This document shows, piece by piece, positions 16,744-44,674 of a stretch of DNA of 64,000 nt. Location: NCBI GenBank assembly GCA_041650335.1, contig JBAZLK010000001.1, forward strand, positions 36,940 through 100,939, read 5' to 3'. The stretch comes from Patescibacteria group bacterium (GTDB lineage: Bacteria; Patescibacteriota; Patescibacteriia; JAHIZJ01). Position 1 is the stretch's first letter. Each line of letters starts with the position of its first letter. The position numbers and the translations under genes are program-made. A model generated the notes under the pieces. That model was not told where the DNA came from. It searched no databases and worked only from the letters and a program-made list of their open reading frames with translations.

Positions 16744-16752
16744 CGGGTTGAT

Positions 16753-19865: not shown

Positions 19866-19866
19866 T

Positions 19867-26167: not shown

Positions 26168-26257
26168 TGGCGGAGGCGGTAGGATTCGAACCTACGATAC
26201 CTTTGCAGGTATTCCGGTTTTCAAGACCGGCCCGTTCAACCACTCCGGCACGCCTCC
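26168..26257 (-). tRNA. tRNA-Ser: tRNA-Ser (anticodon TGA), long variable arm
   Basis: The reverse complement is GGAGGCGTGCCGGAGTGGTTGAACGG...CCGGT-CTTGAAA-ACCGG...GGTTCGAATCCTACCGCCTCCGCCA. Confidence 0.85.
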
Positions 26258-26294
26258 TGAAGAGGGTGATCATACAATGGCGGGCAACTCGGGT

Positions 26295-27506: not shown

Positions 27507-28137
27507 TCAAGCTAAAATTCGCTTAGGGCGCTTAATAAGCAGTTTGGATTGAATGAAAAATCGACTGCTGTGGATAACTTAAGTATAATCCAATTTAGCT
27601 AACAAAAGCCAAAAAAATACGAAACGGATTTAAACGGTTAATATCCGTTGTCGTTCGTTTTCATTTCCTCGTCCATTGACCAGAAATGACCAGTATGTAT
27701 ACTCAAAACGTACGCTGAATTTGAAAGATTTGGCGCCACGAAGATTCATTAACGCAACCAAGAAAGGAACCAAAGCCCGAAAGGATTACACCCCGATGCG
27801 CGCCACGGAAGAACATCGGCGTACGTCGCGGGATCGAGCGACAAGCTCGTTATGTACCGCAGAGGCAGAGAGTGGTTTAAGCTAATGCTCGTCATGTAGC
27901 TTATATACCCCCACTCTTTCCGAATACTCGCCATACGTCTTGGCTCAAAAAACGCGCTAGCGTGAGGAAAGAGGTCGAACCGCGTGTGGGTACGACTCAA
28001 AGCTCCGCTAACGAACGAAGAGGCCCGGAGTAAATGACGAATTTTGGTCAGCCCCTAATCCTGGGAACCAATTTTAGTCGTTTATACTGCGCCTCTTTTT
28101 GCTTTGCCCTAAGGAGGCCAGGAAGGAGATCAACACC

Positions 28138-29460
28138 ATGAACAACCCAAACCTCAAAATCCACTACGTCGACGTCAACGAATTGAAACCGTCCGAGTAC
28201 AACCCCCGCGTCTGGGACAAGCAGGCCATCCACGATCTGACCGAGAGCATAAAGCGTTACGGTCTAGTTGAGCCACTGTTATGCAACGGTGCCTCCAGTC
28301 GTCGCAATATAGTCATAGGGGGTCACTTCCGACTGAAGATCGCAAAAGACCTCGGCATTGAGACAGCGCCGGTAGTGTACGTGAACATTCCTGACATCGA
28401 AAAGGAAAAAGAGCTGAACTTGCGTCTGAACAAAAATACGGGCGCATTCGACTTGGACCTGTTGGCGACACTCGATGAGCGTTTTCTCGCTGATATCGGT
28501 TTCTCCTCCGAAGAACTGGACGACATTTTCGAGATTGAAGAGACGCCGGGAGTGTTCGATCTTGAACGGGAGCTCAAGAAACTGGATATCAACAACATTG
28601 AAATCCAGAAAGGCGACGTCTACCGACTTGGAGACTCGAAAATCATGTGCGGTGACAGTACCATTGAAGCGGATATGCTGAAACTCATGAACGGCGAGAA
28701 GGCCGATATGTGCCTAACTGACGCGCCCTACATCCTCGATTATCTCAGGGGTAAAAAGAAAAACGGCAAGCCGACCGAGGGATTTGGATTCAAACGTGAT
28801 CGCAGGTACCTCGAGACGGACAGCTTGCCGGAGAACTTCAGCGAATTGTGGATGGGCAATGTCGCCAAGGTTCAGAAGGACGACTTCTCTATCATTGCGT
28901 ACGAAAATTGGAAGAATATTCCGACCATTTGGGGCGAGATGGCTAAACACTGGAAAATCAAGAACATGATCGTCTGGCACCTCCCGAACCGTACCCAAGG
29001 ATTCGCCGCTAAGTATAAATTCTTCTCCAAGCACGATATCGTCATGGTAGGCACGCAAGGGAATGTTGTCTTGAATCAAGAGTCGGAAGAGACGCTGCTT
29101 CAGAACGAATATGAAACGGCGCTGTACGCCATCTCGGGGAGGCCCCAATGGGAGGGCTATGAAAAGGGCAAGAAAATCTGCCCGACCGACTTCATCGAGT
29201 ACAACGCCGCGGATGAGAAGAGTTCAGGCCAAGGGATCATCTTCGGTACAAAACCCGTGCAGATACTTATCCCGTATCTCAAGGTACTAACCAAGCGGGG
29301 CGATCTCGTGCTAGAACCTTTCGGCGGGTCGGGCAGTACGTTAATCGCCGCCGAGAAAATGAACCGACGCTGCTTCCTAATGGAAAAATCTCCGGTCTAT
29401 GCCGAAGTCATCCGCAAGCGCTGGGAAAATCTGACTGGTCGTAAAGCAACAAAAATATGA
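28138..29460 (+). CDS. ParB-like nuclease domain fused to beta-class DNA (N6A/N4C) methyltransferase
   Basis: SD AAGGAGG..GGAGA upstream. The N-terminus carries NPR and GGHFRL ParB motifs. Motif IV is TDAPY (a DPPY variant) and precedes motif I LEPFGGSGST. Confidence 0.8.
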   Translation: MNNPNLKIHYVDVNELKPSEYNPRVWDKQAIHDLTESIKRYGLVEPLLCNGASSRRNIVIGGHFRLKIAKDLGIETAPVVYVNIPDIEKEKELNLRLNKNTGAFDLDLLATLDERFLADIGFSSEELDDIFEIEETPGVFDLERELKKLDINNIEIQKGDVYRLGDSKIMCGDSTIEADMLKLMNGEKADMCLTDAPYILDYLRGKKKNGKPTEGFGFKRDRRYLETDSLPENFSELWMGNVAKVQKDDFSIIAYENWKNIPTIWGEMAKHWKIKNMIVWHLPNRTQGFAAKYKFFSKHDIVMVGTQGNVVLNQESEETLLQNEYETALYAISGRPQWEGYEKGKKICPTDFIEYNAADEKSSGQGIIFGTKPVQILIPYLKVLTKRGDLVLEPFGGSGSTLIAAEKMNRRCFLMEKSPVYAEVIRKRWENLTGRKATKI

Positions 29461-29885
29461 ACGACCTTTATCAAGAAACCATCGAGCAAAGGCAGGTCAG
29501 AGACAAGGAATCGATCTTGGAATACTTGCGGAAGATGCCCATCGCGCAGATCGCCTGCGAGCGAGCCGGAATAGCCCGAGCCACCTACTACCGTTGGCGA
29601 AACGAGGATAAAGAATTCAAGAAAGCGGCGGACGAGGCAATGCGGGACGGCGAGGCATTCATCAACGACTTAAGCGAAAGCCAAGTCGTGACGCTGATTA
29701 AAGACCGGAACCTGCCAGCCATCACCCTATGGCTGAAGAATCATCATCCCGCGTATGCCGACAGGATCAAAGTGGAGGCGAGCATAAGCCGTACGGACGA
29801 GCCGTTGAGCGCGGAGGAGGAAAAGCTGGTGCGGCACGCGCTGGCCTGCCTGCGCGGAACCGCTAACGAGAAATCCAATGATTAA
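29457..29885 (+). CDS. phage terminase small subunit-like HTH protein
   Basis: HTH region AGIARATYYRWRNEDKEF. It overlaps the TerL start by 8 nt. Confidence 0.5.
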   Translation: MNDLYQETIEQRQVRDKESILEYLRKMPIAQIACERAGIARATYYRWRNEDKEFKKAADEAMRDGEAFINDLSESQVVTLIKDRNLPAITLWLKNHHPAYADRIKVEASISRTDEPLSAEEEKLVRHALACLRGTANEKSND

Positions 29886-31407
29886 CTTACCGCCCGACGT
29901 CAGCAAGGCGATCGCGGGCAACCAGAAGGTGCGTATAGCGATCGCGCGGCAAAGTCATCTTGCCTTCTTCACGGTCTATCTGCACAACTACATCAAATAC
30001 CCATTCGCACCGTTCCATGATGATCTGTTTGATATCACCGAGCGGAACGATAACCGTTATGCCGTGATTACCGCGTTTCGCGGATCGGGAAAATCCACGA
30101 TCCTCACGCTGTCATATCCGCTGTGGGCGATCATCGGACGGCCGCAAAAAAAGTTCGTGCTTATCTTGGGCAACACCATGCATCAGGCGCAAACCTACAT
30201 GAAGCACATCAAGAGCGAGTTGGAAGGGAACCTGCTGCTCCGTCGCGACCTCGGGCCATTTCAGGAGGAGAACAATTGGCAAGCGGCATCGATAGTCCTC
30301 CAAAAGTATGGCGCTCGCATCACTTGCGCTTCTTACGAGCAGGGCATACGCGGCCTGCGGCATCGGCAGTACCGTCCCGATCTCATCATTTGCGACGACA
30401 TCGAGGACTTGGATTCGGTCAAAACGCTGGAAAGCCGGGACCGAACGGCCGACTGGTTTAAGGGCGAAGTGCTACCCGCCGGAGACAGAAACACACGCGT
30501 CTTCGTCGTCGGAAACTTGTTGCATGAGGATTCCTTGATCATGCGCCTGCGGAAGGAAATCGAGGAGGGCCAGTTCGACGCCGATTATCGGGCATATCCT
30601 TTTCTCGACGAAGCGGGGAAAGCCGCGTGGCCGGGGAAGTTCCCTGATCAAGCGAGCATTGATGCGGAACGGCGAAAGATTAACGACGAGGCGGCCTTCC
30701 AGCGGGAGTACATGCTGAACATAATCCCTGACGTGGATCGGGTCATTCAGAAGGAGTGGATACGCTATTACGACGACCTGCCGGACGAGGAGTCGGGATG
30801 GCGATACGGTCGGGCGGGGATCGGGGTCGATCCGGCTTTGTCGCAGCGAGACGGCGCGGACCGCACGGCCATGGTCGCGGCGAAATCCTTCATCAAGGGA
30901 AAAGAGTTGCGGGTGTACGTCCTGCCGTATCCGGTGAACGAGCGGCTCACGCCGCTCCGGTCGATACAGCGGGCGAAGAAAGTCGCGAGTCGCGTCGAGT
31001 CGGGCCGAAAGACGCCCTTGTTCGTCGAGGACGTCGCCTTCCAGCGGCATCTCATCGATGACCTGAAAAAAGAAGGATATCCGGCCATCGGCGTGCCAAC
31101 GCGCGGCTTGGACAAGCGCGGCCGATTGCTTGCGGTGAGTCAGTACCTCGAGAATGGCCAGGTGTTTTTCCCTCGTCATGGAGCGGAAATCCTGATCAGC
31201 CAGCTCTTGGGATTCGGCGCGGAGCGGTACGATGATTTGGTGGACGCGTTCACGATCATCGTGGGCGAGCTGTTCCAGCACCCGCCCTCGCCGCCGCCAA
31301 CGTGGATGAACGACGATGATGATAACGATCCGCAAATCGACGACGGATTCGGTTATCCGACAGACGGCAAGCCGATCTTCTGGGACATTTTAAATAAGCA
31401 GTTCTAG
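29878..31407 (+). CDS. phage terminase large subunit
   Basis: Walker A AFRGSGKST and Walker B LIICDDIED. The C-terminal RNase H-like nuclease has GIGVDPA and DDLVDAF acidic motifs. Confidence 0.85.
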   Translation: MINLPPDVSKAIAGNQKVRIAIARQSHLAFFTVYLHNYIKYPFAPFHDDLFDITERNDNRYAVITAFRGSGKSTILTLSYPLWAIIGRPQKKFVLILGNTMHQAQTYMKHIKSELEGNLLLRRDLGPFQEENNWQAASIVLQKYGARITCASYEQGIRGLRHRQYRPDLIICDDIEDLDSVKTLESRDRTADWFKGEVLPAGDRNTRVFVVGNLLHEDSLIMRLRKEIEEGQFDADYRAYPFLDEAGKAAWPGKFPDQASIDAERRKINDEAAFQREYMLNIIPDVDRVIQKEWIRYYDDLPDEESGWRYGRAGIGVDPALSQRDGADRTAMVAAKSFIKGKELRVYVLPYPVNERLTPLRSIQRAKKVASRVESGRKTPLFVEDVAFQRHLIDDLKKEGYPAIGVPTRGLDKRGRLLAVSQYLENGQVFFPRHGAEILISQLLGFGAERYDDLVDAFTIIVGELFQHPPSPPPTWMNDDDDNDPQIDDGFGYPTDGKPIFWDILNKQF

Positions 31408-31785
31408 GAGGGCTCAAGGCGGAAAAGTTATCGACAAGTTGTCGACTGGACTTCCACGACCTTCGCGGTACCGTAGGAATAGCGGAATATCCTTGCAGAA
31501 GGCCTGAAAAAGGGGTAAACTGAGAGTAATTCGAGGCCTTCGGAAAAGGTTGTTTCGCCCGAATGTTCATTCTGCAATAACCATCTTTACCTAAACCGTT
31601 CTTCGGAACGGCATGGTATATAAAACCCTTGGAAGATACTGAACCCCGTGTTCAGCGACTCTTCCAAGGGTCATATCCCGAAAGGGGTATGGGCGGCCGA
31701 AAGGTTGCTAGCTGGCGCGGGGTTTTGTGTATCTGGAGCCAGCAACACTAATGGAACAACTTACTTCTTGAAGGGAGGTGATCAC

Positions 31786-32313
31786 ATGGCAGATGAAAAA
31801 CAACCGAAGAAGAAAGGCCGTAAAGGTCTCTGGATTACCTTAATCGTTGTCGTATTCGCGATTATCGGTTTGGCCAGCATGAACAAAGAAAACAAAAACG
31901 CGAATACGAATTCGACAGCGCAGGCGAACGTGACGGCGAAAAACGCTAATACTCAACAAGTCACTCTGGCAGAACATAAGGTAATACCAAAGGATACGCA
32001 CGGTACGACGAAGATTGTTTATGCGATAGTCAATCCGAATATCACCCGAGCGGAAGTCATCGCAATAAATGACTCGTTAATCAGTCAGTACTCCTCCGGC
32101 CTAACGCATCTCACGATCGAGTACTTCGATGACGAAACGGTTTCGGGGGACTACTTCAGTAAAATAACCGACCTGTTGAGTCAAGATAAGACGACAGAGG
32201 CTGATAATCTTGCGAAACACTATCTCGCGACCTACACCATGAATACAGTGTCAGGTCTTAACCAGCTTGAGTATAAAGAGAACGGAGAATTGGTATCGAT
32301 CAAGAATTATTAA
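31786..32313 (+). CDS. membrane-anchored protein with N/T-rich linker
   Basis: GGGAGGTG SD precedes the ATG at 31786. TM helix followed by NKENKNANTNST low-complexity sequence. Confidence 0.5.
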   Translation: MADEKQPKKKGRKGLWITLIVVVFAIIGLASMNKENKNANTNSTAQANVTAKNANTQQVTLAEHKVIPKDTHGTTKIVYAIVNPNITRAEVIAINDSLISQYSSGLTHLTIEYFDDETVSGDYFSKITDLLSQDKTTEADNLAKHYLATYTMNTVSGLNQLEYKENGELVSIKNY

Positions 32314-32381
32314 CATTGCGGGTATACAAAACCGCTTTCGATGAGAAAGTGGTTTTGTCATTATGGTTCAGTTGTTTTGCC

Positions 32382-33194
32382 CTAGAAGAGATCAAATGAT
32401 TCTTCGTTTGTTTGATGACGATTTTCCCTCTCTTGAGCACCAATGTCCCAGTCGAGATTCTCGCGTAATAGTTTGATATCTCGATTCTCTAAGTCCTGTA
32501 AGAAAGAATCTAACGCGTCAAAGTTTACAATATCAATTAAAAAATATTTCATGATATCAGTTGAGTCCCCGCTGCTTTTAGGTTGCTTGTATGAATAATC
32601 AATTTCAAGTTGGAATGGTTCGGTAATGGGAGCATGTCCCGAACTCGCATCACGCTTATGCAGGTTTTGTAGCGAATCAGTAATTATGAGAGGAAAATCA
32701 ACATGATAGGAGGAGGGGATGTTTCTCCCGTTACTAAAGAAAATAAGACCGTTGAGACATTGGTTCATCGCCTCGAAAACGTCATCACGGTTGCCGCTTT
32801 TTGCCGCTATTTTAGCAACGGGGACATTATCCACGTAATGATGCTTTGCTAAACCCTGATCCTGAGTAACATAATAATCCGGCTTATCGTTTAAAATGCT
32901 ATTATCCTTTGCCAATTCCGTAGCGGACTTCATATTCTTTTGTCTGAACCAAAAAACTACGGGATCCTTTATATGTTTACATTCAATAAATAGCCTGACG
33001 GCAAATACCTCGTTCCTAACTTTATACTTTTTCGTTGCGATAATATCAATTTCTCTAGGCTTCCCAGTCGCCGGATCGTTATAGTACGGACTGATAGTTG
33101 CCTCCCATTCGTGACTATGTAGAAAATCGGCGACTTTAAATTGCAAGTCGTTTCCACTATTATCAATTATTTCTTGGAATTTATCCTTAGTCAT
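32382..33194 (-). CDS. PD-(D/E)xK nuclease-family protein
   Basis: EIDIIATKK ... RLFIECKH matches the D...ExK core. Confidence 0.55.
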   Translation of the reverse strand: MTKDKFQEIIDNSGNDLQFKVADFLHSHEWEATISPYYNDPATGKPREIDIIATKKYKVRNEVFAVRLFIECKHIKDPVVFWFRQKNMKSATELAKDNSILNDKPDYYVTQDQGLAKHHYVDNVPVAKIAAKSGNRDDVFEAMNQCLNGLIFFSNGRNIPSSYHVDFPLIITDSLQNLHKRDASSGHAPITEPFQLEIDYSYKQPKSSGDSTDIMKYFLIDIVNFDALDSFLQDLENRDIKLLRENLDWDIGAQERENRHQTNEESFDLF

Positions 33195-33206
33195 ATACGG
33201 ATTAGC

Positions 33207-34721
33207 TCAAATATAAAGAGAAACCAACTCTTTCCATACCGCGACCATCGCGTAGGTGTCGAATCCGCAGTACTCTTTCAGATTACTGGCGATAGTTTTG
33301 CTTTCCTCCGGAGTAGTCGCCGGAGATACCATCTTCCACCATGCATCCGAGGCCTGTCCGCCTTCCTGAATAGCCAGATTCCCATATCGAAGGTCGGGCA
33401 TGAGGGCTGGCAGAACATATTTAATGGAATGACTTCCGAAGAATTTCGGATGAACGTAATGCTGTTTTTGGAATATTTCCATGAGGTCATAGATTCTCGC
33501 ATTCAGATCCTCAAGGAATTCTTGATGCTGAGGGTGTCGCGAAGCAAGCTCGCGATGAACTCCCATTTCGAAGCATTGATTCCATACTAATATCCGGCCC
33601 CCGTCTTGCACGTGTCGCTGGAGTGTAGCGATAACTTGCCCGGAAGGATCGCTTCGTTCTTCGTGGAGATACTCGTAATGCTTAAGCTCACCGTTTGGCG
33701 CATCAAGGACATGGAGCGACATCTGAAATGGAATCCGTTGGTACGGCTTGAAACCGTTGAATATCGGAATAGCGGGTGCGAAGGTCTCGTAGTCGAGAAA
33801 ATACAGCGGAAATGTCAATGCGCCGAGCTTCTCCTTGATCGTTTTCAGGTCGATCATGGACTGTTGCGTTTGGTGCGCTCGTACTTGATTCCATTGGATA
33901 TCGGAGAGCTCGGTATCCTCCGGCACGTGGGCGATGTCGAAAATACGGCGTTCAACGAATGTACGGAGCTTCTTCTTGCTTACTCCGATACGGGCGATAT
34001 CGTGAACCGAGTACTCTGGAACGTCGGGGTTGGAGTATGAAAAGGTCGTACAGTGGTTATTGCGTCCGAGATAAATGCACTGGCATTCACCGGCTGGTTC
34101 TTTTTCTTGCAGAAGGTAATTCTTCGCGGCGGTCATTTCAGCCTCTATTTTCGGCAGTCGCGCACGAACCTTTTCGGTTTCGTCCTCGATCACAAGGAGC
34201 TGCTCGATATCGAGATCGCCCTGACGGACGTAGTCTTTGTTCAGATGGATGATATTATATTTCCCTGTTCGTATTTTGGCTCGATTCAATACGGATACTT
34301 GGAACGCAACATCATCGATGTGGTCGCGATCGGAACCCTCTTTGAGCGAGTTGGTACCTTTGACTTCGTATAAGTCCCAGCACTCGTTGGTTTCGTCATA
34401 AGCGAGAATATCGTTCCGAGCGATGAAACCGTCGACGATAAAGGTCGCCTGAAACAAGGTCGGGACCTTTGATGTCATGTGCCGGATCGTCTCTTGGCAA
34501 GCTTCGTCGCCGTAACCCACGATCTCAATTCCGTCGGGGAAAAGATTGCGAGCGATTGAATCAACTTCGTTTCCTTGTTCCAGAAGGTGTTTCTCGAACT
34601 CTGAAAGCTGATAATGCTGGTGTAAGTCTGGACGGTGAAGTTTCAGCCAGGTGTTTTTTGAGCACTGTAAAAATTCGAGGAAGACTGTTTTTGAGATGAG
34701 AATTTGTGGACTATTTATCAT
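33207..34721 (-). CDS. DUF2779-like protein: Cas4/RecB-like PD-(D/E)xK nuclease N-domain (Cys cluster) + DEDD-type 3'-5' exonuclease C-domain
   Basis: N-terminal FIVDGFIARNDILAYDE...LYEVKG with ECQCIYLGRNNHC. C-terminal YFLDYETF...RIPFQMSLHV. Confidence 0.65.
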   Translation of the reverse strand: MINSPQILISKTVFLEFLQCSKNTWLKLHRPDLHQHYQLSEFEKHLLEQGNEVDSIARNLFPDGIEIVGYGDEACQETIRHMTSKVPTLFQATFIVDGFIARNDILAYDETNECWDLYEVKGTNSLKEGSDRDHIDDVAFQVSVLNRAKIRTGKYNIIHLNKDYVRQGDLDIEQLLVIEDETEKVRARLPKIEAEMTAAKNYLLQEKEPAGECQCIYLGRNNHCTTFSYSNPDVPEYSVHDIARIGVSKKKLRTFVERRIFDIAHVPEDTELSDIQWNQVRAHQTQQSMIDLKTIKEKLGALTFPLYFLDYETFAPAIPIFNGFKPYQRIPFQMSLHVLDAPNGELKHYEYLHEERSDPSGQVIATLQRHVQDGGRILVWNQCFEMGVHRELASRHPQHQEFLEDLNARIYDLMEIFQKQHYVHPKFFGSHSIKYVLPALMPDLRYGNLAIQEGGQASDAWWKMVSPATTPEESKTIASNLKEYCGFDTYAMVAVWKELVSLYI

Positions 34722-35446: not shown

Positions 35447-35463
35447 TTTTTAATACTTATGTA

Positions 35464-37758: not shown

Positions 37759-39475
37759 GGATTTCTTGGTAGATATCTAAAATAGGCTGTGGAATCGGCT
37801 CAAGACGAATATTTTGCCAGTAGTCGAATTCGTGCTGATCAAGACCAAGCGGATCAAGGGTGAAGCAGTAGAGGATCTTGTCACCCGTGAAGCGGTCGAA
37901 TTCTTTCTTCAAAGCAGATAAACCTGATCGGTCGAGCGCGTAATACACGCCCATAATACGTTGACCTTGGGTAAATGTCCGAAACTGCGTCGTCTCCTTC
38001 TTCAGGTCGTAGATACCTTCGCGGACGCTGAGCATTTCCGTACACTCGTTTGTAATGCGAACCTTGATCTCGTCACGGTTAATTGATTTCTTCACGAATG
38101 CAGTTTTGAAATAGCGTAGGTTACCGCCGAAACCGGCCACCTTTTCGCCATTGCCATTCTTTTTATATCCCTTTATTACTTTTTCAATGCGTGGATAGCA
38201 AATGTCCGTTGCTATATTATTTTCGTTATTGGTAGAAAGAATAAATTGGCGGTTACCACCATCTTTTTTATTCAACTGTAGAACGGCGTGGCCGGTCGTA
38301 CCCGAACCTGCAAAAAAGTCTAAAACCACAGCATTTTTATTGCCATTTGCTGCCGCAGTTATACAATCAATTACTGCATATAGAGATTTTGGATATGCAA
38401 AGGAACCTCGCTCAATAATTTGGTTAAGTAATTGCGTGCCGTAGTTATTGGCTGAGTATTTGCTATCTGTCCAGACGGTTTTGTAATTGAACCGGTTCTT
38501 GGTGCGTTTGATATCCCAGACACCCCTTCTTTTTAAAAGAATAGCCTGTAGCTCGTCCCTTATGCTCTCAACAGTATGTCGGGCGAAACGCCACTTCCTC
38601 TCAATTCCCTGTGGATCAATTGGATACACTTCGATAACGCCGTCCCTTCTTTTAAGATTTACTGACCTCGGGTGATAACTATCCTTACAAACTTCACCGA
38701 AGCCAACGATTTTACCGTTCTTCACAAGTACGGGGTAGAAACAATTTGCGCCGGCGGTTCTTAATGACTCATCACCTGTTACATCCCTAAAATTACGAAT
38801 GTCTTCGTTGTCTACTTCACGTGTTTGAAGCCCGATATATCGACCTGGTTTTGGATAAATAAAGTAAGCGAATTCGTGAGTATAAGAGAAATTATCCCCC
38901 TGTATGCCCGCAGGATTGTGTACGATTGTTATGCAGGTTATTTCTCGATCAGCAAACAGTTCTTTTAACAACAACCCGAGTGGTTCTTGTTCATTATGAT
39001 CAATTGTACAAATAAGGACGCCTTTTTCAGAAAGCAAGTTCTTTGCTAATCTAAGTCGCTTGCTCATGAAGCTTAGCCACTTGCTATGTCGCCAAGTATC
39101 ATTGTCGTCAACAAAGTTATTGTTGTATTTCCAATCCCGAGAACCAGTATTGTATGGCGGATCAATATAAATCACATCAACTTTCCTTTGGTGTGTATAC
39201 TGCAAAACCGACAACGCGTGGTAGTTGTCGCCTTCGATCAGTAAGTTGACTGGTTTCTCTGGATCGGTTTCGATCGCCCGACCTTTTACTTCTTTGAGAA
39301 CCGGGTAGGCGTTCTCGGCGTCCTGCTCGAATTTTTCTTTTGTGCGCTCTTCATCCCAAATAAGTCCGTACTTTTTTCGGGACTCAAGTTTCTCTATAGT
39401 CTTGAGTAATTCTTCCTTGCTGAGTTTTGAGTAATCCTTTGCCACAAATTTTGTTAATGAGATAACTTTCGGCAA
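37742..39475 (-). CDS. mod: Type III restriction-modification Mod subunit (N6-adenine methyltransferase)
   Basis: Motif IV DVIYIDPPYNTG lies upstream of motif I DFFAGSGTTGHAV. Confidence 0.85.
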   Translation of the reverse strand: MPKVISLTKFVAKDYSKLSKEELLKTIEKLESRKKYGLIWDEERTKEKFEQDAENAYPVLKEVKGRAIETDPEKPVNLLIEGDNYHALSVLQYTHQRKVDVIYIDPPYNTGSRDWKYNNNFVDDNDTWRHSKWLSFMSKRLRLAKNLLSEKGVLICTIDHNEQEPLGLLLKELFADREITCITIVHNPAGIQGDNFSYTHEFAYFIYPKPGRYIGLQTREVDNEDIRNFRDVTGDESLRTAGANCFYPVLVKNGKIVGFGEVCKDSYHPRSVNLKRRDGVIEVYPIDPQGIERKWRFARHTVESIRDELQAILLKRRGVWDIKRTKNRFNYKTVWTDSKYSANNYGTQLLNQIIERGSFAYPKSLYAVIDCITAAANGNKNAVVLDFFAGSGTTGHAVLQLNKKDGGNRQFILSTNNENNIATDICYPRIEKVIKGYKKNGNGEKVAGFGGNLRYFKTAFVKKSINRDEIKVRITNECTEMLSVREGIYDLKKETTQFRTFTQGQRIMGVYYALDRSGLSALKKEFDRFTGDKILYCFTLDPLGLDQHEFDYWQNIRLEPIPQPILDIYQEIHELGT

Positions 39476-39561
39476 ACACCCGAAGTATAGTTGATTTTGG
39501 CTGAGGAATCAAGAAAAAGACCTTCTTTTTCAATTGTTGAGTCAGTGTTTTCCCGATCTAC

Positions 39562-41925
39562 TTATTTGTCTAATTCGTAAACATATACTGAATTATCAGC
39601 AAGCTCACGAAAAGTGAAAGGGTATTGGTGTGGTAGTACAAAGTTTTGTCTCGTTTTTTTATAATCTATGTACTCATCCCACCAAGGTTCAAGTTCATGT
39701 GCCGTAAGAAGAATGGGTTTTATCCCTTTTTTAACAAGTTTTTTAAAGCGGTTAATTTCACCACTGGTAAACGCTTTCTTGGTTGTCGAAAATACAAGAT
39801 GGCAAGTTAATCCGCTATTTTGTAATAACCCTCTTGTGGTCAGTAGATTATCTATCTTTTTTGCAGTAATTTGATGACCAGTTTTGCATTCGCCAATCAA
39901 TACCTCATTATCATCTTTGCCTAATCTTTGGCTTAAATTTAGAATCGTTAAATCGGACTCAAAAGCCTCCTTTTTCCCATTGCTTGTCAGAGATAAGTCA
40001 AGCCCCGTGGAATAAAGAAAGTCATTCCCCGAATGCATTTTGTTTGTGAGAAACTGTAAAGTCAGGATTACGGGTATTGCACCTTGTTGCTTGTCACTTT
40101 TACCCATTAGCCCGCTAAGTCGATAGTGTAGTCGCAAGCCATCAACTTGTTTCCCATCGATTTTGATTGGATCAATAACCTCGACAAACTTACTAATCTC
40201 CGAACAATAATCACATAGATATCTATCACTTACATCCTTAAGATTTAGCCAATTTTTTAAGCCGCACTTAGGGCAACGAACCTCAACACCAACTTGAAGT
40301 AAATTGTGTTCAACCATCTCATCAAACACATCACTAGGCGTAATGGGCGTTTTTCCTTTTAGGCCAAATGCGTTCTCGAATTTTTTGAAGGTCTCTTCGT
40401 TTTCATTCTTATCTCGAATAGCTTTCAATACCTCATACTTTAGTTTTTGATGTAAAGGATGCGTCTCCTCAATAAATTTTCTTACACCGGTGATTTTGAA
40501 GATTCGAGCAGACCCCATTAATCCTTGCATTAACGAAACGACCCTCTCAGCAACTAAACCTGGTACACTTTTACTCGCAATAATTGATGCTCGTTCGAAA
40601 ACCTTTGTAATGATGTCATTCTTTGAAATTAGACCAATCCGTATCGTGTCGTCATCAATGTCTGTGATTAGGCTAACAGAAGTGCCTAAGGCCCCCCTTG
40701 TGACCCTTAAACCATGTGGGTCAAAAATTGTTTCTCTCGCATACCATTCGTTGAGGTCAGGAAGAGTAGGTAGGCTGAGAGTAAAACCATCGTCCTCCGT
40801 GCTCATTGGAGGATGCACTGATACCCCAAAACACTGATGTAAAAATCTACTATTATCGTGTTTTGCGAAAGGTTTATCTGATAATTGAATATTTAAACTT
40901 GGTTTTCCATATCTTTGGTTTAAGCCCGCAATAGTGGTAGTAGAACTAAGAATGTTATATCCGGGGACAATGTTTAATCCATTCCAAGAGATAGTGGAGA
41001 CTTGGGCGTATGCGAATGGTTTATCTTTGGCGGCAATCAAGTCGGCAATAGTTTTTACTTCTGACTCATTCTGTTTGCTGCCTGAATACCAAATAAGAAA
41101 TGAATGACGGTATCCAGTCGTTGGTTTCTTGATTCTACTCAAATGCTCCTTAATATATGGGAGGAAACGTCTAACATTTGATTTCGGAAGAAAAGTTATG
41201 TAACTGCCGGCTGCGCGTATATTCCAAAAATTTAATAGGTCTATAAAGCTTTTACTATCGCCAATATAAACACCCGCATCATGCCTATTTCCACCATATG
41301 AACGTATTTCCTGTTCAGTAAGCGCGAGCGGAGTAACGGTTGATGCGAGTTTTTTTGGGACTGGTCGACGACCGGTCAGTGTAATTTCTTTTGCCTTAAG
41401 TGCTTTTTGAAAATTATGATGGTATTTATACGCTAATTGCTTCTTTGGATACTCACCAAAAAGTAACGGTAAAAGATCTTTGTCAGCATCTTTATTGGAC
41501 CAAGATATTAATGTGCAATTACTATCATCAGTTTTTGAAAATTTAAAATTCGTGTCCCACATCTTTCTGAGAATATGACTGACATCCAGAACATTCACAT
41601 GCTTTTTCTTTCGATTCATGGAGTCTTCGGATAAAAGCAGTTCTGAGTTGTAAGAGGACGGAAGTCTTGCCCAAGAGTATTTTTCTAAGAATTTATTTAT
41701 TTCCGGTGTTTTGGAGATCGGTATTAATGCGTCGACTTGAAATAATTTTACTAGCGCGTGATCAAGACCCTCTTTTGATCCCACGGGAATAAGTGGGTTG
41801 TAAATACCGCCCCACAAAATGGTATTAAGCTTAACGGCCGTTGCTATATCTTGTTTATGACCATCACGAACACAAAACCCGAGTCTTAGTGGTCGATATT
41901 CAATCCTAACATCATCAAAAGTCAT
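39562..41925 (-). CDS. large hypothetical protein (787 aa): unassigned N-terminal ~550 aa, CxxC-X17-CxxC zinc ribbon, C-terminal PD-(D/E)xK-like motif
   Basis: CPKCGLKNWLNLKDVSDRYLCDYC zinc ribbon, then ESDLTIL...VLIGECKTG. The gene is AT-rich and has no SD. Confidence 0.55.
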   Translation of the reverse strand: MTFDDVRIEYRPLRLGFCVRDGHKQDIATAVKLNTILWGGIYNPLIPVGSKEGLDHALVKLFQVDALIPISKTPEINKFLEKYSWARLPSSYNSELLLSEDSMNRKKKHVNVLDVSHILRKMWDTNFKFSKTDDSNCTLISWSNKDADKDLLPLLFGEYPKKQLAYKYHHNFQKALKAKEITLTGRRPVPKKLASTVTPLALTEQEIRSYGGNRHDAGVYIGDSKSFIDLLNFWNIRAAGSYITFLPKSNVRRFLPYIKEHLSRIKKPTTGYRHSFLIWYSGSKQNESEVKTIADLIAAKDKPFAYAQVSTISWNGLNIVPGYNILSSTTTIAGLNQRYGKPSLNIQLSDKPFAKHDNSRFLHQCFGVSVHPPMSTEDDGFTLSLPTLPDLNEWYARETIFDPHGLRVTRGALGTSVSLITDIDDDTIRIGLISKNDIITKVFERASIIASKSVPGLVAERVVSLMQGLMGSARIFKITGVRKFIEETHPLHQKLKYEVLKAIRDKNENEETFKKFENAFGLKGKTPITPSDVFDEMVEHNLLQVGVEVRCPKCGLKNWLNLKDVSDRYLCDYCSEISKFVEVIDPIKIDGKQVDGLRLHYRLSGLMGKSDKQQGAIPVILTLQFLTNKMHSGNDFLYSTGLDLSLTSNGKKEAFESDLTILNLSQRLGKDDNEVLIGECKTGHQITAKKIDNLLTTRGLLQNSGLTCHLVFSTTKKAFTSGEINRFKKLVKKGIKPILLTAHELEPWWDEYIDYKKTRQNFVLPHQYPFTFRELADNSVYVYELDK

Positions 41926-41937
41926 AAAGGATATAGG

Positions 41938-42405
41938 TCACGAACACTTTATTATTCCATATAATCGAATTACTGCCTCATAAATCACCGTAAAAACCCC
42001 AGCAAAGATCGTTGCCCATACAATGATGATAAAAATACTATATCGATACTTAACCAATGATTTACATTCCAGATCGTGGATAACCTCACCCATCATCAGT
42101 CCATCAAGAGTAATTTCAATTCCGCCATCTACTTGTCGAGCAAACTTTTTCACTCGCAAATTACCCATTGCTGGATTAAGATTATTTAAATAATCAAGAT
42201 CGCTTGTTTTGAGAATGTTTATTTTGATGTATTCGCCGTTTAGGGGCGACTCAAGATGGTGATGGTTATCGACCGTCCACTTTAGTATTTGTTTCTCAAT
42301 TTCCCAAACTTGACGTCGTGTTTGATGAGTTTTCTTCTCTGAAAATTCATACTCTTGATAGAGTTCTAGCTTTCTAAAAAACTTTATTTGAATTGGTAGC
42401 TCCAT
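41938..42405 (-). CDS. small protein with C-terminal TM helix
   Basis: 155 aa with the C-terminal TM segment YSIFIIIVWATIFAGVFTVIY. It lies 12 nt upstream of the 787-aa gene. Confidence 0.45.
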   Translation of the reverse strand: MELPIQIKFFRKLELYQEYEFSEKKTHQTRRQVWEIEKQILKWTVDNHHHLESPLNGEYIKINILKTSDLDYLNNLNPAMGNLRVKKFARQVDGGIEITLDGLMMGEVIHDLECKSLVKYRYSIFIIIVWATIFAGVFTVIYEAVIRLYGIIKCS

Positions 42406-42423
42406 ATTCTAAATCATCAATAT

Positions 42424-42957
42424 TCAGTTGTTCTCTGCGACATGGACACGAAACCCACAGGTTCGACAAAGTCCGTTTGTGCTTGTAGCATTTTTGTTAT
42501 ACTCAAATCTAGCTGAGCCGCAATCTGTACACGTGGTAACGCCGTATCTCTCCTTTAGGCCTTTAATTATTGCGGCAACACTTTTACAATTTCGCGCATA
42601 TCGATCAACCATTTCTTTGTTACCCAAATACCCCTGAACCCATATATCTGTAGTAATCATACCCGCAGCAGCTTCTTTATATAGAATTTTTCCTTCCTTT
42701 AGAAGCTTTTCCCAATACTGTCTCGTGAAGCCATAATCATTTGAGAGGTCGGAGGATGTCATAAATCGGGCTTCTGGGCTTAGATATCCTTTGTCTCGCA
42801 TCAACTTAACCGACTCCGCTATTCCGTCTGCCAATTCTTTTTCTTTCTCATCCGTCGTGACTTCAGCAGGCATAGTAAGCATTAAAGATAAATTGCCACC
42901 GCTATTTATACCGGCGTGCCAAGAGTATTTACGTGTCTGAGTTCGTGTTTTAAGCAT
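42424..42957 (-). CDS. hypothetical protein with C-terminal zinc ribbon
   Basis: C-terminal CTDCGS...CRTCG zinc ribbon. First gene of the 3-gene module. Confidence 0.45.
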   Translation of the reverse strand: MLKTRTQTRKYSWHAGINSGGNLSLMLTMPAEVTTDEKEKELADGIAESVKLMRDKGYLSPEARFMTSSDLSNDYGFTRQYWEKLLKEGKILYKEAAAGMITTDIWVQGYLGNKEMVDRYARNCKSVAAIIKGLKERYGVTTCTDCGSARFEYNKNATSTNGLCRTCGFRVHVAENN

Positions 42958-43135
42958 AAAACAAGGATATCATTATTGGTTGCATTACGCAACCACCCAA
43001 ATAAACACAAAGATCAGATTGCATAAAGATATGGCTCGAAAGAATCATTGAGCGGTTTTTCAAGGCGTTTCAGGAAAAAGTTATCAACTCCACCCACTCT
43101 GGACGCCCCGCAGGGGTTGCGTCATCCCTTAGAGC

Positions 43136-44467
43136 ATGAATAACCATACCCAACAGGGAGAGGCCGACCAGGGGCAGGTTCTGGCCCCTCCCCCAATCAA
43201 GTATTGCCTCTATGCCCGCAAGAGTTCGGAGTCCGAGGAGAGACAAGTTCTGTCGATCGACTCCCAGATTAAAGAGATGCTTCAGATCGCCGACCGAGAG
43301 AAGCTCAATATCGTCGAGATGCGCCGGGAGAGCCATTCCGCCAAGGACACAGGCCAGCGTCCGGTATTCAACGAACTGATCAGTGATATCCGCCTGGGAA
43401 AGTTCAACGGTATCCTGACTTGGGCGCCGGACCGGCTCTCGCGTAACGCCGGTGACCTCGGCATGTTAGTCGACCTGATGGATCAAAAACTACTTCATGA
43501 AATTCGCACGTACGGACAGGTCTTTTCGAACTCGCCAAATGAGAAGTTTCTCTTGATGATTCTCGGTAGCCAAGCAAAGCTCGAAAACGACAACCGGGGC
43601 GTCAATGTGAAACGTGGATTGCGAACCCGTGTCGAAATGGGTCTCTGGCCGAACATGGCACCAATCGGGTATTTGAATCAAAACCGGCAGGATAAAAAGG
43701 GGCAATTACTCGTCGATCGGGTGCGAGCGCCGATCATCAAGCAAATGTTCGAGCGAGTCGCCTACGAACATCAAAGCGGCAGGAAAATCTACAATTGGCT
43801 GCGTCACGATCTGAATTTTCATACGCGGGGAAACAAACATCTCACCTTAAGTGGCGTCTACCGGATCCTGACCACCACGTTCTACTACGGCATGTATGAA
43901 TACCCGAGAGACAGCGGTAATTGGTACAAAGGCAAGCATGAGCCGATCATCACGCAGGAACTTTTCGATAAAGCCACGGAACAGCTTAAACGCGATCAGA
44001 TCGTTCGGGAAAACAAGGAATTCGCCTTTACCAAGTTGTTTACCTGCGGCAAGTGCGGTTCCGGCATCAGCGCTGAGGAGAAATATAAGGAGCATAAAGA
44101 CGGAACGGCCGCTCGGTACGTCTACTACGGCTGCACCAGAGCGCGTGATCGTGATTGCCGGAATACGTACATCCGGGAGGAAGAGCTTATCCAGCAGCTT
44201 CTCGGCATTCTCGATCAGGTGAACGTCAACGAGTTGGGCATGCGGTACAAGCTGGAAGAGGAAATCAAGCGGTTCAACAAATTCCAACACGTAGTCATGG
44301 GCACGAAAGCCGATAGCATATCGGAGGAAACCGAAGTGAACATTCGAAAGTACGCCAAATACCTCTTGAAAGAGGGAAGCGTTACCGAGAAACGCGAATT
44401 GTTGGCGAACCTGCGGAGCCGGTTGATCTACAAAGATAAGACGCTGACTTTAGTACGGGAAGGGTAA
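43136..44467 (+). CDS. large serine recombinase (integrase)
   Basis: Resolvase catalytic region YARKSSESEERQVLSIDSQ, a recombinase domain and a CGKCGS...YYGC zinc ribbon. Confidence 0.85.
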   Translation: MNNHTQQGEADQGQVLAPPPIKYCLYARKSSESEERQVLSIDSQIKEMLQIADREKLNIVEMRRESHSAKDTGQRPVFNELISDIRLGKFNGILTWAPDRLSRNAGDLGMLVDLMDQKLLHEIRTYGQVFSNSPNEKFLLMILGSQAKLENDNRGVNVKRGLRTRVEMGLWPNMAPIGYLNQNRQDKKGQLLVDRVRAPIIKQMFERVAYEHQSGRKIYNWLRHDLNFHTRGNKHLTLSGVYRILTTTFYYGMYEYPRDSGNWYKGKHEPIITQELFDKATEQLKRDQIVRENKEFAFTKLFTCGKCGSGISAEEKYKEHKDGTAARYVYYGCTRARDRDCRNTYIREEELIQQLLGILDQVNVNELGMRYKLEEEIKRFNKFQHVVMGTKADSISEETEVNIRKYAKYLLKEGSVTEKRELLANLRSRLIYKDKTLTLVREG

Positions 44468-44584
44468 AGGATTTCTAATCGTAGCAACCCCCCGCCGGGT
44501 TCTCCGGCAGGGGGTTGGGGTATTGCCAACACAAGCTTCTATTCTTTTTGAGCCACGTGGGTCGGCTCCGATAAAAGATTGTGT

Positions 44585-44674
44585 TGGCGGAGAGTGCAGG
44601 ATTCGAACCTGCGAGGGACCTTACGGTCCCATGGTTTAGCAAACCATTGCCTTAAGCCACTCGGCCAACTCTCC
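44585..44674 (-). tRNA. tRNA-Ser: tRNA-Ser (anticodon GCT), long variable arm
   Basis: The reverse complement is GGAGAGTTGGCCGAGTGG...ATGGT-TTGCTAA-ACCAT...GGTTCGAATCCTGCACTCTCCGCCA. Confidence 0.85.

What the first reader, a model, noticed from the sequence alone, without database searches (positions are those of the whole stretch)
27507..44674. Mosaic integrative island at tRNA-Ser with two nearby tRNA-Ser genes
A large serine recombinase (43136..44467) sits 117 nt from the 3' end of tRNA-Ser(GCU). The block to its left carries phage packaging genes, a ParB-methyltransferase, a Type III R-M and several nucleases, with sharply alternating GC (GC-rich terminase versus AT-rich defence genes). 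A second tRNA-Ser(UGA) and a multi-Zn-ribbon gene lie at the other side. A 630-bp mostly non-coding gap (27507..28137) is a candidate left junction. A GIY-YIG nuclease abuts the tRNA on the far side.
Basis: partly seen in the sequence, partly recalled or inferred. Interest (0 to 1): 0.55.

Follow-up and report, generated by a model that had tools for sequence, protein, structure and literature searches.

The report
Capsid-less terminase island at tRNA-Ser
An 18.3-kb mobile island sits at the end of a serine tRNA gene in a tiny uncultured (Patescibacteria/CPR) bacterium; it belongs to a widespread, apparently undescribed family that keeps a phage DNA-packaging motor and a serine integrase, has no capsid genes, and carries anti-phage defence genes and an orphan structured RNA (LOOT).

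Summary
A syntenic relative (L162) has the same flanking genes with nothing between tRNA-Ser(GCU) and tRNA-Ser(UGA). This sets the island at window 26284-44584 (18,301 bp), flanked by the 6-bp repeat TGGCGG, which is the 3' end of tRNA-Ser(GCU). The 630-bp gap proposed as the left junction is internal. The Zn-ribbon gene lies inside the island.

Joining the two island ends gives an attP that matches a contiguous sequence in another element (L107).

The packaging genes are not mosaic debris. ParB-methyltransferase, TerS, TerL, variable cargo and a large serine recombinase (LSR) recur in that order. Of 76 related loci, 57 have at least one of the three packaging-block genes upstream of the LSR and 39 have all three. 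In 22 loci a tRNA gene follows with its 3' end facing the LSR. None of the loci inspected shows portal or capsid genes. Phages with a more distant TerL (32-38% identity) do have them.

Cargo is mostly defence. Here it is an AT-rich operon with a Type III R-M system, DUF2779 and a Can2/VC1899-like nuclease.

LOOT RNA (Rfam RF03000, no function given in the Rfam table) occurs in 16 of 44 elements scanned.

The most likely lifestyle is a phage satellite. This is inferred, not shown.

The parts
26278..26283 (.). Left copy of the 6-bp core TGGCGG (attL crossover region).
   Evidence: The window's left flank aligns with the empty-site relative L161 up to this hexamer and diverges right after it. It is identical to the tRNA-Ser(GCU) 3' end at 44585-44590.
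26284..26301 (+). Left end of the island, P' arm of the att site (GCAACTCGGGTTCAGTAC).
   Evidence: Matches L107 7323-7340 at 20 of 22 positions. There it directly follows a P-arm motif, forming a contiguous attP-like site.
26354..26372 (+). Left subterminal box TTTGAGGCACGTGGGTCGG (GGGTCGG box).
   Evidence: 18/19 direct repeat of 44547-44565. The GGGTCGGGGTCT part is conserved at the same relative place in L107.
26295..27506 (-). Multi-Zn-ribbon protein (four CxxC pairs), an accessory gene at the island's left end. The called start gives 399 aa (26295-27494).
   Evidence: Only weak Zn-ribbon Pfam hits. Homologues (29-37% identity) lie left of ParB-MT in L122, L141, L142 and L166; further homologues occur elsewhere in L100 and L158. 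The last ~45 aa are unconserved read-through over the att boxes.
27507..28138 (.).
   Evidence: No credible ORF, no Rfam match, two weak promoter-like sites. It lies 1.2 kb inside the island as defined by the empty site.
28099..29460 (+). ParB_N + N6/N4 DNA methyltransferase, first gene of the conserved core (probable start ATG at 28139).
   Evidence: Pfam PF02195 and PF01555. phrog_498, E 1e-76. 62-78% identical homologues stand in the same position in many loci.
29457..29885 (+). Small terminase subunit (TerS).
   Evidence: PHROG terminase-small families phrog_4044 and phrog_309. Conserved between ParB-MT and TerL in 48 loci.
29878..31407 (+). Large terminase subunit (TerL), apparently intact.
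   Evidence: phrog_38, E 4e-79. NCBIfam termin_lrg_T7. It keeps all invariant columns of the 24-sequence alignment A4, including FRGSAKST and DDxED.
31588..31709 (+). LOOT RNA (Rfam RF03000).
   Evidence: Full-length match, 90.4 bits against a gathering score of 46.4, E 2e-16. Also found in 15 of 43 related elements.
31786..32313 (+). Small single-pass membrane protein downstream of LOOT. The ORF is listed from 31648; the probable real start is Met47.
   Evidence: Translation shows a KKKGRKGLWITLIVVVFAIIGL membrane segment. The same LOOT-then-small-membrane-protein arrangement occurs in L099, L111, L113, L115, L120, L138 and L148.
32382..33194 (-). 270-aa protein with an EIDIIA...FIECKH motif (PD-(D/E)XK nuclease-like); last gene of the AT-rich cargo operon.
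   Evidence: No family hit. The motif was read from the translation, so this is an inference.
33207..34721 (-). DUF2779 protein (cargo).
   Evidence: PF11074, E 5e-40. Homologues occur as cargo in L090-92, L114, L117, L132, L144, L146, L158 and L163.
34718..35446 (-). 242-aa protein, unknown (cargo).
   Evidence: No hit in Pfam, PHROGs, PADLOC or NCBIfam.
35464..37758 (-). Type III restriction subunit (Res).
   Evidence: PF04851 ResIII. PADLOC REase_III, E 6e-17. Homologues sit next to Mod and the LSR in L109 and L125.
37742..39475 (-). Type III methyltransferase (Mod).
   Evidence: PADLOC MTase_III, E 3e-70. PF01555.
39562..41925 (-). 787-aa predicted nuclease: Rossmann/CARF-like N-terminal part, Zn ribbon and a C-terminal PD-(D/E)XK-type motif. 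Probable defence effector.
   Evidence: No Pfam or PADLOC hit. The family has 1,650 representatives. Invariant C551/C554/C571/C574 and E656/D658/E679/K681. AF2 model pLDDT 87, pTM 0.85. Best fold match is VC1899 (1xmx), E 5e-5, followed by Can2, Cdn1 and NucS.
41938..42405 (-). 155-aa protein, unknown (cargo).
   Evidence: No family hit.
42424..42957 (-). 177-aa protein, unknown; first gene of the cargo operon, divergent from the recombinase.
   Evidence: No family hit.
43136..44467 (+). Large serine recombinase (integrase), last gene of the island.
   Evidence: PF00239, PF07508 and PF13408. More than 8,000 homologues; the top 120 are 73-83% identical and carry Patescibacteria names. It keeps all invariant residues of alignment A2, including R28 and S30.
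44547..44584 (+). Right end of the island, P arm of the att site: the 19-nt box, GGGTC (44559-63), CCGATA (44568-73) and ATTGT (44578-82).
   Evidence: The motif GGGTC-N-CCGATA-N-ATTGT-N-(T)GGCGG is conserved next to tRNA-Ser 3' ends of different isoacceptors in L088, L090, L098, L099, L100, L102, L103, L108 and L109.
44585..44674 (-). tRNA-Ser(GCU), the target gene. Its 3'-terminal CCGCCA (44585-44590) is the right copy of the core.
   Evidence: ARAGORN and Rfam. 100% identical to the tRNA in empty-site relative L161.

Best explanation
Window 26284-44584 is an 18.3-kb integrative mobile element in a Patescibacteria (CPR) bacterium.

Shown here:
- It lies between two tRNA genes that are direct neighbours in relatives. 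It joins the chromosome at the 3'-terminal CCGCCA of tRNA-Ser(GCU).
- Its last gene is an apparently intact large serine recombinase, 117 nt from the tRNA.
- Joining its two ends gives an attP that matches a contiguous site in a related element.
- It belongs to a large family with a fixed core: ParB-methyltransferase, TerS, TerL, then the LSR at the tRNA-proximal end. Between TerL and the LSR is a cargo slot of 0-12 kb.
- Neither this island nor any related locus inspected contains portal, capsid or tail genes.

Inferred:
- The recombinase integrates the circular form by attP x attB recombination inside TGGCGG, leaving the tRNA intact.
- The element spreads as a phage satellite. It excises, and its own TerS/TerL package its DNA into capsids supplied by a helper phage, of the kind whose more distant TerL is followed by portal, protease and HK97-type capsid genes.
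- The ParB-methyltransferase modifies the element's DNA.
- The cargo protects the host, and therefore the element, against other phages. Here the cargo is an AT-rich eight-gene operon with a Type III R-M system, DUF2779, a Can2/VC1899-like nuclease and other nuclease-like proteins.
- The LOOT RNA with its small membrane protein is a recurrent accessory cassette of the family. Its role is unknown.
For: Empty site:
- L162 has PilM-...-ClpC-ComF-GIY-tRNA-Ser(GCU)-309 nt-tRNA-Ser(UGA)-DsbA-...-RecG with no island.
- L161 (ComF 81% identical, tRNA 100% identical) shows the same arrangement.
- The window's flanks align up to and from TGGCGG.

attP: the reconstructed junction aligns with L107 7263-7420, score 54 against a maximum of 36 in 200 shuffles.

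Family:
- 76 LSR loci. 57 have at least one of ParB-MT, TerS and TerL upstream on the LSR strand, and 39 have all three. The TerL/TerS-to-LSR gap is 58-9,277 nt.
- In 22 loci a tRNA follows with its 3' end towards the LSR. Six of these are 116-202 nt from the LSR stop.
- A P-arm motif is conserved next to tRNA-Ser genes of different anticodons.

No structural genes:
- No structural-protein family hit for any island ORF.
- No gene family beyond the four core ones is common in the gene-family maps of the loci.
- Phages with TerL 32-38% identical carry portal (phrog_2662, E 1e-84 to 1e-106), protease and major head protein right after terL.

Intact catalytic and invariant residues in the LSR and TerL.

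Defence cargo.
Against: - No excised or circular form was found. The attP and attB junction strings are absent from JGI metagenome contigs. Exact-protein look-ups returned only the integrated contigs. No locus has terminal repeats.
- No recombination directionality factor, replication gene or phage-sensing regulator was identified in the window's element.
- No helper phage is identified, and the host of the TerL-related phages is unknown.
- The left (P') arm is confirmed by only one other element.
- The P and P' arms show little inverted symmetry.
- Most related loci are IMG/VR fragments limited to 10 kb either side. Structural genes further away cannot be excluded for them. They are excluded for the window, where both ends are defined.
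Confidence: 0.55

Rival explanations
1. The terminase module serves interference or defence rather than self-transfer. In this reading the element is an LSR-mobilised defence island. Its TerS/TerL/ParB-MT act against invading phages, for example by competing for or cutting their DNA at packaging. Transfer happens by other means, such as natural transformation or the CPR type IV systems.
For: Cargo is overwhelmingly defence genes. No replication or regulatory module typical of satellites was found in the window. Some elements carry two tandem terL paralogues (L126, L128, L129, L134, L135, L160). That is odd for a simple packaging motor.
Against: TerS, TerL and ParB-MT are arranged exactly as in real phage packaging operons. 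ParB-like genes also precede terL in the related capsid-bearing phages. TerL keeps both its ATPase and nuclease invariant residues. No terminase-based defence system matched in PADLOC.
Confidence: 0.2
2. A decayed prophage remnant next to an unrelated defence island, with the recombinase left over from the prophage.
For: The GC content shifts sharply between the terminase block and 32.2-43.0 kb. TerL's nearest characterised relatives are Mu-like and other true phages.
Against: The same capsid-less order recurs in dozens of independent contigs with 45-83% identical proteins and intact ORFs. This includes minimal versions where TerL is 58-300 nt from the LSR. Random decay would not give the same end state repeatedly.
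Confidence: 0.1
3. A complete but unrecognised virus whose structural proteins are among the unannotated ORFs.
For: Several island ORFs have no family hit (221, 242, 155 and 177 aa). CPR phages are poorly sampled.
Against: None of these ORFs is conserved across the family; all are singletons in the clustering. They lie in an AT-rich operon together with R-M genes. Minimal elements have no room for a capsid set.
Confidence: 0.07
4. A fixed chromosomal region with a domesticated recombinase that is no longer mobile.
For: The LSR is unusually conserved: 73-83% identity across CPR lineages whose ClpC is at most 47% identical to any species representative retrieved by the row-capped scan. No excised form was found.
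Against: An empty site exists in syntenic relatives. Related elements sit at different tRNAs (Ser, Gln, Glu, Asp, Asn, Trp, Arg) and carry different cargo.
Confidence: 0.03

Closest known systems
Phage-inducible chromosomal islands (PICIs/SaPIs) and capsid-forming PICIs
   Same: Site-specifically integrated elements of about 10-18 kb. They lack a full virion gene set, carry their own packaging gene(s) and often carry anti-phage cargo. (The family properties come from established knowledge and the tycheposon preprint.)
   Different: PICIs use tyrosine integrases. They carry TerS (or Rpp) alone, or in cf-PICIs a full head set with TerS and TerL, and they have replication and repressor modules. 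This family has an LSR and both TerS and TerL but no head genes. No replication module was found. Helper dependence is untested.
Tycheposons of Prochlorococcus
   Same: tRNA-targeted integrative elements with a cargo slot. Some are PICI-like with terS or a capsid gene, and a minority encode a large serine recombinase.
   Different: Tycheposons are defined by shared replication hallmark genes and are mostly tyrosine-recombinase elements. PICI-like tycheposons were not seen with cargo. The present family combines a packaging core and cargo, and has no replication genes.
P4-like satellites and P2 prophage defence hotspots
   Same: A fixed position in a mobile element where diverse defence systems are swapped. 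This comparison rests on my own knowledge of Rousset et al. 2022; I did not read that paper here.
   Different: Different integrase class, different core genes and different host phylum.
Large-serine-recombinase prophages (phiC31, Bxb1, A118, SPbeta type)
   Same: Same three-domain integrase architecture. The gene is adjacent to one att site. There is a short identical core and no long target duplication.
   Different: The characterised LSR phages named here integrate into protein-coding genes (my own knowledge). Here the targets are the 3' ends of tRNA genes, which is usually the habit of tyrosine integrases. These elements also lack virion genes.
Can2 / Card1 (VC1899) CARF-nuclease effectors
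   Same: The model of the 787-aa cargo protein gives VC1899 as best fold match, then Can2 and Cdn1. The alignment has a D...ExK nuclease motif.
   Different: The global TM-scores are low (0.19-0.34). The protein is about twice as long, has an extra Zn ribbon, and no CRISPR type III or cyclic-nucleotide synthase gene is nearby. Membership is not established.

Membership tests
Large serine recombinase (serine integrase) | N-terminal resolvase catalytic domain with the nucleophilic serine | tested here: met
   PF00239, E 2.5e-19, residues 25-169. R28 and S30 fall in invariant columns of the 26-sequence alignment.
Large serine recombinase (serine integrase) | Recombinase domain plus zinc beta-ribbon domain C-terminal to the catalytic domain | tested here: met
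   PF07508, E 1e-13, and PF13408, E 8e-9.
Large serine recombinase (serine integrase) | Short identical core at attL and attR, with no long duplication, and the integrase gene next to one att site | tested here: met
   A 6-bp TGGCGG stands at both junctions, defined against the empty sites. The LSR stop is 117 nt from the core.
Large serine recombinase (serine integrase) | Catalyses attP x attB recombination with a 2-bp staggered crossover | not testable with these tools
   Needs an in vitro or in vivo recombination assay.
Integrative genomic island | Empty site in related genomes with conserved flanks | tested here: met
   L162 shows full synteny without the island. L161 is a closer relative with the same arrangement.
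Prophage (complete temperate phage) | Portal, major capsid and tail genes within the integrated element | tested here: not met
   No structural family hit for any island ORF. Both island ends are defined, so nothing lies outside the view.
Phage satellite (PICI-like) | Integrase plus own packaging gene(s) with an incomplete or absent virion module, size well below that of a phage genome | tested here: met
   LSR, TerS and TerL in 18.3 kb. Related elements have the core compressed to about 5-6 kb from ParB-MT to LSR.
Phage satellite (PICI-like) | Own replication initiator/primase and a helper-sensing repressor | tested here: not met
   None was found in the window. By reading their translations (no family search), proteins that look like LexA/CI-type repressors and XRE regulators sit upstream of ParB-MT in some relatives, for example L093 and L115.
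Phage satellite (PICI-like) | Induction by, and packaging into the capsids of, a helper phage | not testable with these tools
   Needs virome or particle-associated DNA data, or culture. Candidate helper-type phages with related TerL exist.
Type III restriction-modification system | Adjacent Mod (N6/N4 methyltransferase, type III) and Res (SF2 helicase-nuclease) genes | tested here: met
   PADLOC MTase_III, E 3e-70, and REase_III, E 6e-17. The genes overlap by 17 nt.
LOOT RNA (Rfam RF03000) | Score above the curated gathering threshold over the full covariance model | tested here: met
   90.4 bits against 46.4, model positions 1-121 of 121.
CARF-nuclease effectors (Can2/Card1) | CARF sensor domain fused to a PD-(D/E)XK nuclease and coupled to a cyclic-oligoadenylate source | tested here: inconclusive
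   Fold match to VC1899, E 5e-5, but TM 0.19-0.34. A nuclease motif is present. No cOA synthase was recognised in the island.

The most novel reading that the evidence does not exclude
These are a new, CPR-wide class of phage satellites. They keep a complete terminase (TerS and TerL) and a DNA methyltransferase but no capsid genes. They use a highly conserved serine integrase to enter the 3' ends of tRNA genes, and they act as the main exchangeable carriers of defence systems in these minimal genomes. LOOT RNA, transcribed divergently about 150 nt from the integrase start in many members, would be part of their regulatory switch.
Probability: 0.4. Interest if true: 0.78.

Novelty: new variant of a known kind. 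Interest (0 to 1): 0.64.

Why it matters
- CPR/Patescibacteria have tiny genomes and few CRISPR systems (PMC6509639, abstract). How they resist and exchange phage defences is an open question. A very widespread element family that shuttles R-M systems, reverse transcriptases, GmrSD, Shedu-like and new nuclease genes between CPR lineages would be a concrete answer. The scale is large: more than 8,000 recombinase homologues, with 73-83% identity across lineages that carry different NCBI candidate-phylum names.
- It would add a satellite architecture not among the families I know: both terminase subunits, no capsid genes, a serine integrase and tRNA targets.
- It gives the orphan LOOT RNA a defined genomic home and a testable context.
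- The recombinases come with natural tRNA-end attB sites and a reconstructable attP. That may interest people who collect serine integrases as genome-engineering tools.

Tried and rejected
- The 19-nt direct repeat (26354-72 and 44547-65) was first taken as the att core. It was rejected once the empty-site alignment put both copies inside the island. It is now read as two of three GGGTC boxes of the att region.
- Left junction in the 630-bp gap: no similarity to the right junction, and the gap is internal.
- TerL and the LSR as single-protein queries in viral contigs gave 0 and 4 loci. Alignments were needed.
- INPHARED phages: TerL at most 28% and the LSR at most 28% identical, so no close known phage.
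- Exact searches for the window's attP and attB junction strings in JGI metagenome contigs gave 0 hits each.
- Looked for an excised form through exact look-up of the Zn-ribbon protein: only integrated contigs. No circular contigs with terminal repeats. L110's repeated ends are 92% identical over the first 300 nt, so it is tandem elements, not a circle.
- Direct repeats flanking the Zn-ribbon gene and the LSR in other loci: none found. P'-arm motif search: only L107 matches.
- A LOOT covariance model of my own was abandoned because the 3-sequence MAFFT alignment was poor.
PDB sequence searches for the 787-aa, Zn-ribbon and DUF2779 proteins were uninformative.
- Literature searches found no description of the family or of LOOT's context. 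The supplement of the LOOT discovery paper is not held.

Full report
**What is there**

- ARAGORN finds tRNA-Ser(UGA) at 26168-26257, tRNA-Ser(GCU) at 44585-44674 and tRNA-Arg(GCG) at 24732-24808, all on the minus strand.
- The ORF at 43136-44467 has the three domains of a large serine recombinase (LSR). It ends 117 nt before the tRNA 3' end.
- To its left lie a ParB_N+N6/N4 methyltransferase, a small and a large terminase subunit, DUF2779, and Type III Res and Mod genes.
- GC is 0.50-0.60 over the terminase block, 0.355-0.49 between 32.2 and 43.0 kb, and about 0.51 in the flanks.
- The window comes from a 364-kb metagenome contig (ENA ERZ27247363). NCBI labels its proteins Patescibacteria group bacterium.

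**Boundaries**

The recombinase gave no close host relatives, so I searched with the flanking ComF-like protein and looked up the contigs of its nearest homologues.
- L162 (NCBI GCA_028717285.1, ComF 54% identical) has the window's whole neighbourhood in the same order: PilM, a 1,372-aa protein, LemA, M48 peptidase, ClpC, ComF, GIY-YIG, tRNA-Ser(GCU), tRNA-Ser(UGA), DsbA, a 163-aa protein, tRNA-Arg, RecG, a second DsbA and a T4SS pilin. The two serine tRNAs are only 309 nt apart, with no recombinase, terminase or R-M genes between them.
- L161 (ComF 81% identical, tRNA-Ser(GCU) 100% identical) shows the same tRNA pair.
- Aligned against L161, the window's left flank matches through GAAGAGGGTG, nine bases and TGGCGG (26278-26283), then diverges. 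The right flank matches from TGGCGGAGAGTGC (44585 onward).

The island is therefore 26284-44584 (18,301 bp). It is bracketed by TGGCGG, the complement of the tRNA's 3'-terminal CCGCCA.
- The Zn-ribbon ORF (stop codon at 26295-26297) is inside the island.
- The 630-bp gap is the internal divergent intergenic region between that ORF and the methyltransferase.
- The GIY-YIG gene is outside the island, and is itself absent from L161.

**Attachment sites**

The roughly 40 nt on the island side of the tRNA carry a motif: a small hairpin, GGGTC, CCGATA, ATTGT, then the tRNA end.
- This motif recurs next to tRNA-Ser genes of different anticodons in nine other elements. It is missing from unoccupied tRNA-Ser genes. 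So it is element DNA, the P arm.
- The first 18 nt of the island (GCAACTCGGGTTCAGTAC) reappear in L107 directly after such a P arm and a GCGG core.
- The window's attP, rebuilt by joining its right and left ends, aligns across the junction with that contiguous L107 sequence. The local score is 54, against at most 36 for 200 shuffles.
- The 18/19 direct repeat I first took for the att core is two of three GGGTC-containing boxes in this region, all inside the element.
- The tail of the Zn-ribbon ORF is unconserved read-through over these boxes.

The crossover within TGGCGG, and the recombinase's activity, are inferred.

**A family, not a mosaic**

- The recombinase has more than 8,000 homologues at E<=1e-20. 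The best 120 are 73-83% identical. Where a source names them, they come from Patescibacteria, Kerfeldbacteria, Niyogibacteria and Levybacteria. By contrast, the neighbouring ClpC is at most 47% identical to any GTDB species representative that the scan retrieved.
- I collected 76 loci around such recombinases. 57 have at least one of ParB-methyltransferase, TerS and TerL upstream on the same strand, and 39 have all three. Most of the rest have cargo that runs past the 10-kb limit.
- The distance from TerL/TerS to the recombinase ranges from 58 to 9,277 nt. In the window it is 11,729 nt.
- In 22 loci a tRNA gene follows the recombinase, always with its 3' end towards it: Ser x12, Gln x4, Glu x2, Trp x2, and Asp, Asn and Arg once each. 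In six loci it lies 116-202 nt from the recombinase stop, as in the window.
- Zn-ribbon homologues lie left of the methyltransferase in four loci (L122, L141, L142, L166) and occur elsewhere in L100 and L158.

**No virion genes**

- No island ORF matches a structural family.
- Clustering of all ORFs in the loci gives no common family beyond the four core ones.
- A TerL-profile scan of IMG/VR separates two groups. TerL at least 42% identical is always found with ParB-MT/TerS, and with the LSR where the contig reaches. TerL 32-38% identical sits in ordinary phage modules. In those modules it is followed by a 745-803-aa portal/MuF protein (phrog_2662, E 1e-84 to 1e-106), a protease/scaffold and a major head protein.
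- The element's packaging block thus derives from a phage lineage but travels without heads or tails.
- TerL and the LSR keep every invariant column of their family alignments.

**Cargo**

- In the relatives the variable genes are mostly defence. Pfam marks Type I R-M, Fic, SduA_C, GmrSD_N and NucS_C genes. By reading translations I also recognised Type IIG enzymes, a reverse transcriptase and helicases.
- In the window the cargo is one tightly packed, AT-rich, minus-strand operon that starts 178 nt from the recombinase. In order it encodes a 177-aa protein, a 155-aa protein, a 787-aa protein, Mod, Res, a 242-aa protein, DUF2779 and a 270-aa protein with a PD-(D/E)XK-like motif.
- The 787-aa protein belongs to an unannotated family with 1,650 representatives in a library clustered at 50% identity. 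It has invariant CxxC pairs and a D...ExK motif. It folds with high confidence, pLDDT 87. Its best fold matches are VC1899, Can2, Cdn1 and NucS-type nucleases. It is probably a defence nuclease, but the type is unresolved.

**LOOT RNA**

- A full-length LOOT RNA (RF03000) lies 180 nt after terL, at 90 bits against a gathering score of 46. The Rfam table lists it only as a gene/sRNA. The Rfam 14 paper describes it as a metagenome-based family (PMC7779021).
- Counting the window, 16 of 44 elements scanned carry a LOOT RNA.
- In six loci it is divergent from the recombinase, 141-170 nt from its start. In four loci it is divergent from the methyltransferase.
- It is usually followed within about 10-85 nt by a gene, often for a small single-pass membrane protein.
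- In the window this unit is inverted, and the cargo operon separates it from the recombinase.

**How it most likely works**

- Shown: site-specific insertion at the tRNA-Ser(GCU) 3' end, a conserved capsid-less core, a variable defence slot, and intact recombinase and terminase genes.
- Inferred: LSR-mediated attP x attB integration inside TGGCGG, and spread by packaging the excised element with its own terminase into a helper phage's capsids (a satellite lifestyle). The methyltransferase would protect the element's DNA and the cargo would protect the host.
- I give the integration part about 0.9 and the satellite part about 0.5.
- Against the satellite reading: no excised form, no directionality factor, no replication gene and no helper phage was found.
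- Rivals: a terminase module used for interference rather than transfer (0.2), a decayed prophage beside a defence island (0.1), an unrecognised complete virus (0.07), and a fixed, domesticated locus (0.03).

**Comparison and novelty**

- The element works like a PICI or P4-type satellite that carries a defence hotspot. It resembles tycheposons in using tRNA sites and in having a cargo slot.
- It fails the PICI-type membership features of a replication module and a repressor.
- It differs from all of these by combining a serine integrase, both terminase subunits and no head genes.
- To my knowledge, tRNA 3' ends are unusual targets for serine integrases.
- Full-text searches found no description of this family or of LOOT's context. 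The library covers open-access papers only, so prior description cannot be excluded.
- I rate it a new variant of a known kind.

Noticed in passing
window 31588-31709 (+); L099, L101, L110-L113, L115, L117, L119, L120, L127, L130, L138, L140, L148: LOOT RNA (RF03000, an orphan metagenome-based family) is a recurrent part of this element family: 16 of 44 elements scanned. It often lies 141-170 nt from the recombinase start on the opposite strand. It is followed by a small membrane-protein gene or another variable gene.
   Followed up: partly
window 44678-44923 (-): The 81-aa GIY-YIG gene, 3 nt from the tRNA-Ser(GCU) 5' end, is absent from the closest relative L161, where the flanking sequence is otherwise continuous. 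It is present in L162. Similar small GIY-YIG genes sit near tRNAs in L085 and L091/L092. It looks like an independent mobile or homing-type insertion.
   Followed up: partly
L161 about 6205-6360 and L162 11128-11320 (empty-site spacers): In both relatives without the island, the spacer after tRNA-Ser(GCU) contains a 21-nt copy of the tRNA's 3' end (TGGCGGAGAGTGCAGGATTCG) about 190 nt downstream. In L162 it is joined to a long GC-rich hairpin in which CAGGATTCG pairs with CGAATCCTG. It could be the scar of an older integration or a tRNA-like 3' structure. The window lacks this segment.
   Followed up: no
window 26317-26345 (-): An 11-of-12 sigma-70-like promoter match (TTGAAA-17-TATAAT) at the island's left end points outward at tRNA-Ser(UGA). 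The insertion separated that tRNA from its upstream tRNA neighbour. This is a consensus match only.
   Followed up: no
window 43136-44467; one search hit list: The recombinase is far more conserved across CPR lineages (73-83% identity) than the adjacent housekeeping ClpC (at most 47% to any GTDB representative retrieved) or the element's own TerL (about 40-55%). This suggests recent spread over a wide host range, or strong constraint.
   Followed up: partly
L107/L109, L112/L122, L123/L124, L102/L139, L141/L144, L158/L159, L110: Several IMG/VR contigs carry two recombinase modules. In L107 an attP-like P-core-P' junction lies between two different elements. L110's two ends are 92% identical over the first 300 nt. 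The elements seem to pile up in tandem.
   Followed up: partly
L126, L128, L129, L134, L135, L160: These elements have two tandem terL paralogues, each about 47-53% identical to the window's TerL. L097 and L099 have a shorter P-loop TerL-like protein (family f32) in place of terL.
   Followed up: no
window 39562-41925 (-): The 787-aa cargo protein represents a large unannotated family (1,650 representatives at E<=1e-3; no Pfam or PADLOC model). It has a confident predicted fold that combines Rossmann/CARF-like domains, a Zn ribbon and a PD-(D/E)XK-type nuclease motif.
   Followed up: partly
window about 15500-20700 (from L003 gene calls) and L162 16876-20619: T4SS-pilin, VirB4/TraG-like ATPase and second DsbA genes lie left of RecG. 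They are syntenic in the island-free relative L162. They are therefore chromosomal CPR genes, not part of this island or of a conjugative element linked to it.
   Followed up: partly
L004 and L002 (Logan SRR8542065 contigs), window about 26172-26197: In a second sample the assembly breaks inside tRNA-Ser(UGA), not at the island junctions. The likely cause is k-mers shared with other tRNA-Ser genes. It gives no evidence of island polymorphism.
   Followed up: no
L145 13649-13754 (+): A SAM riboswitch (RF00162, 50 bits) stands in the host flank right after the target tRNA-Gln of another element.
   Followed up: no
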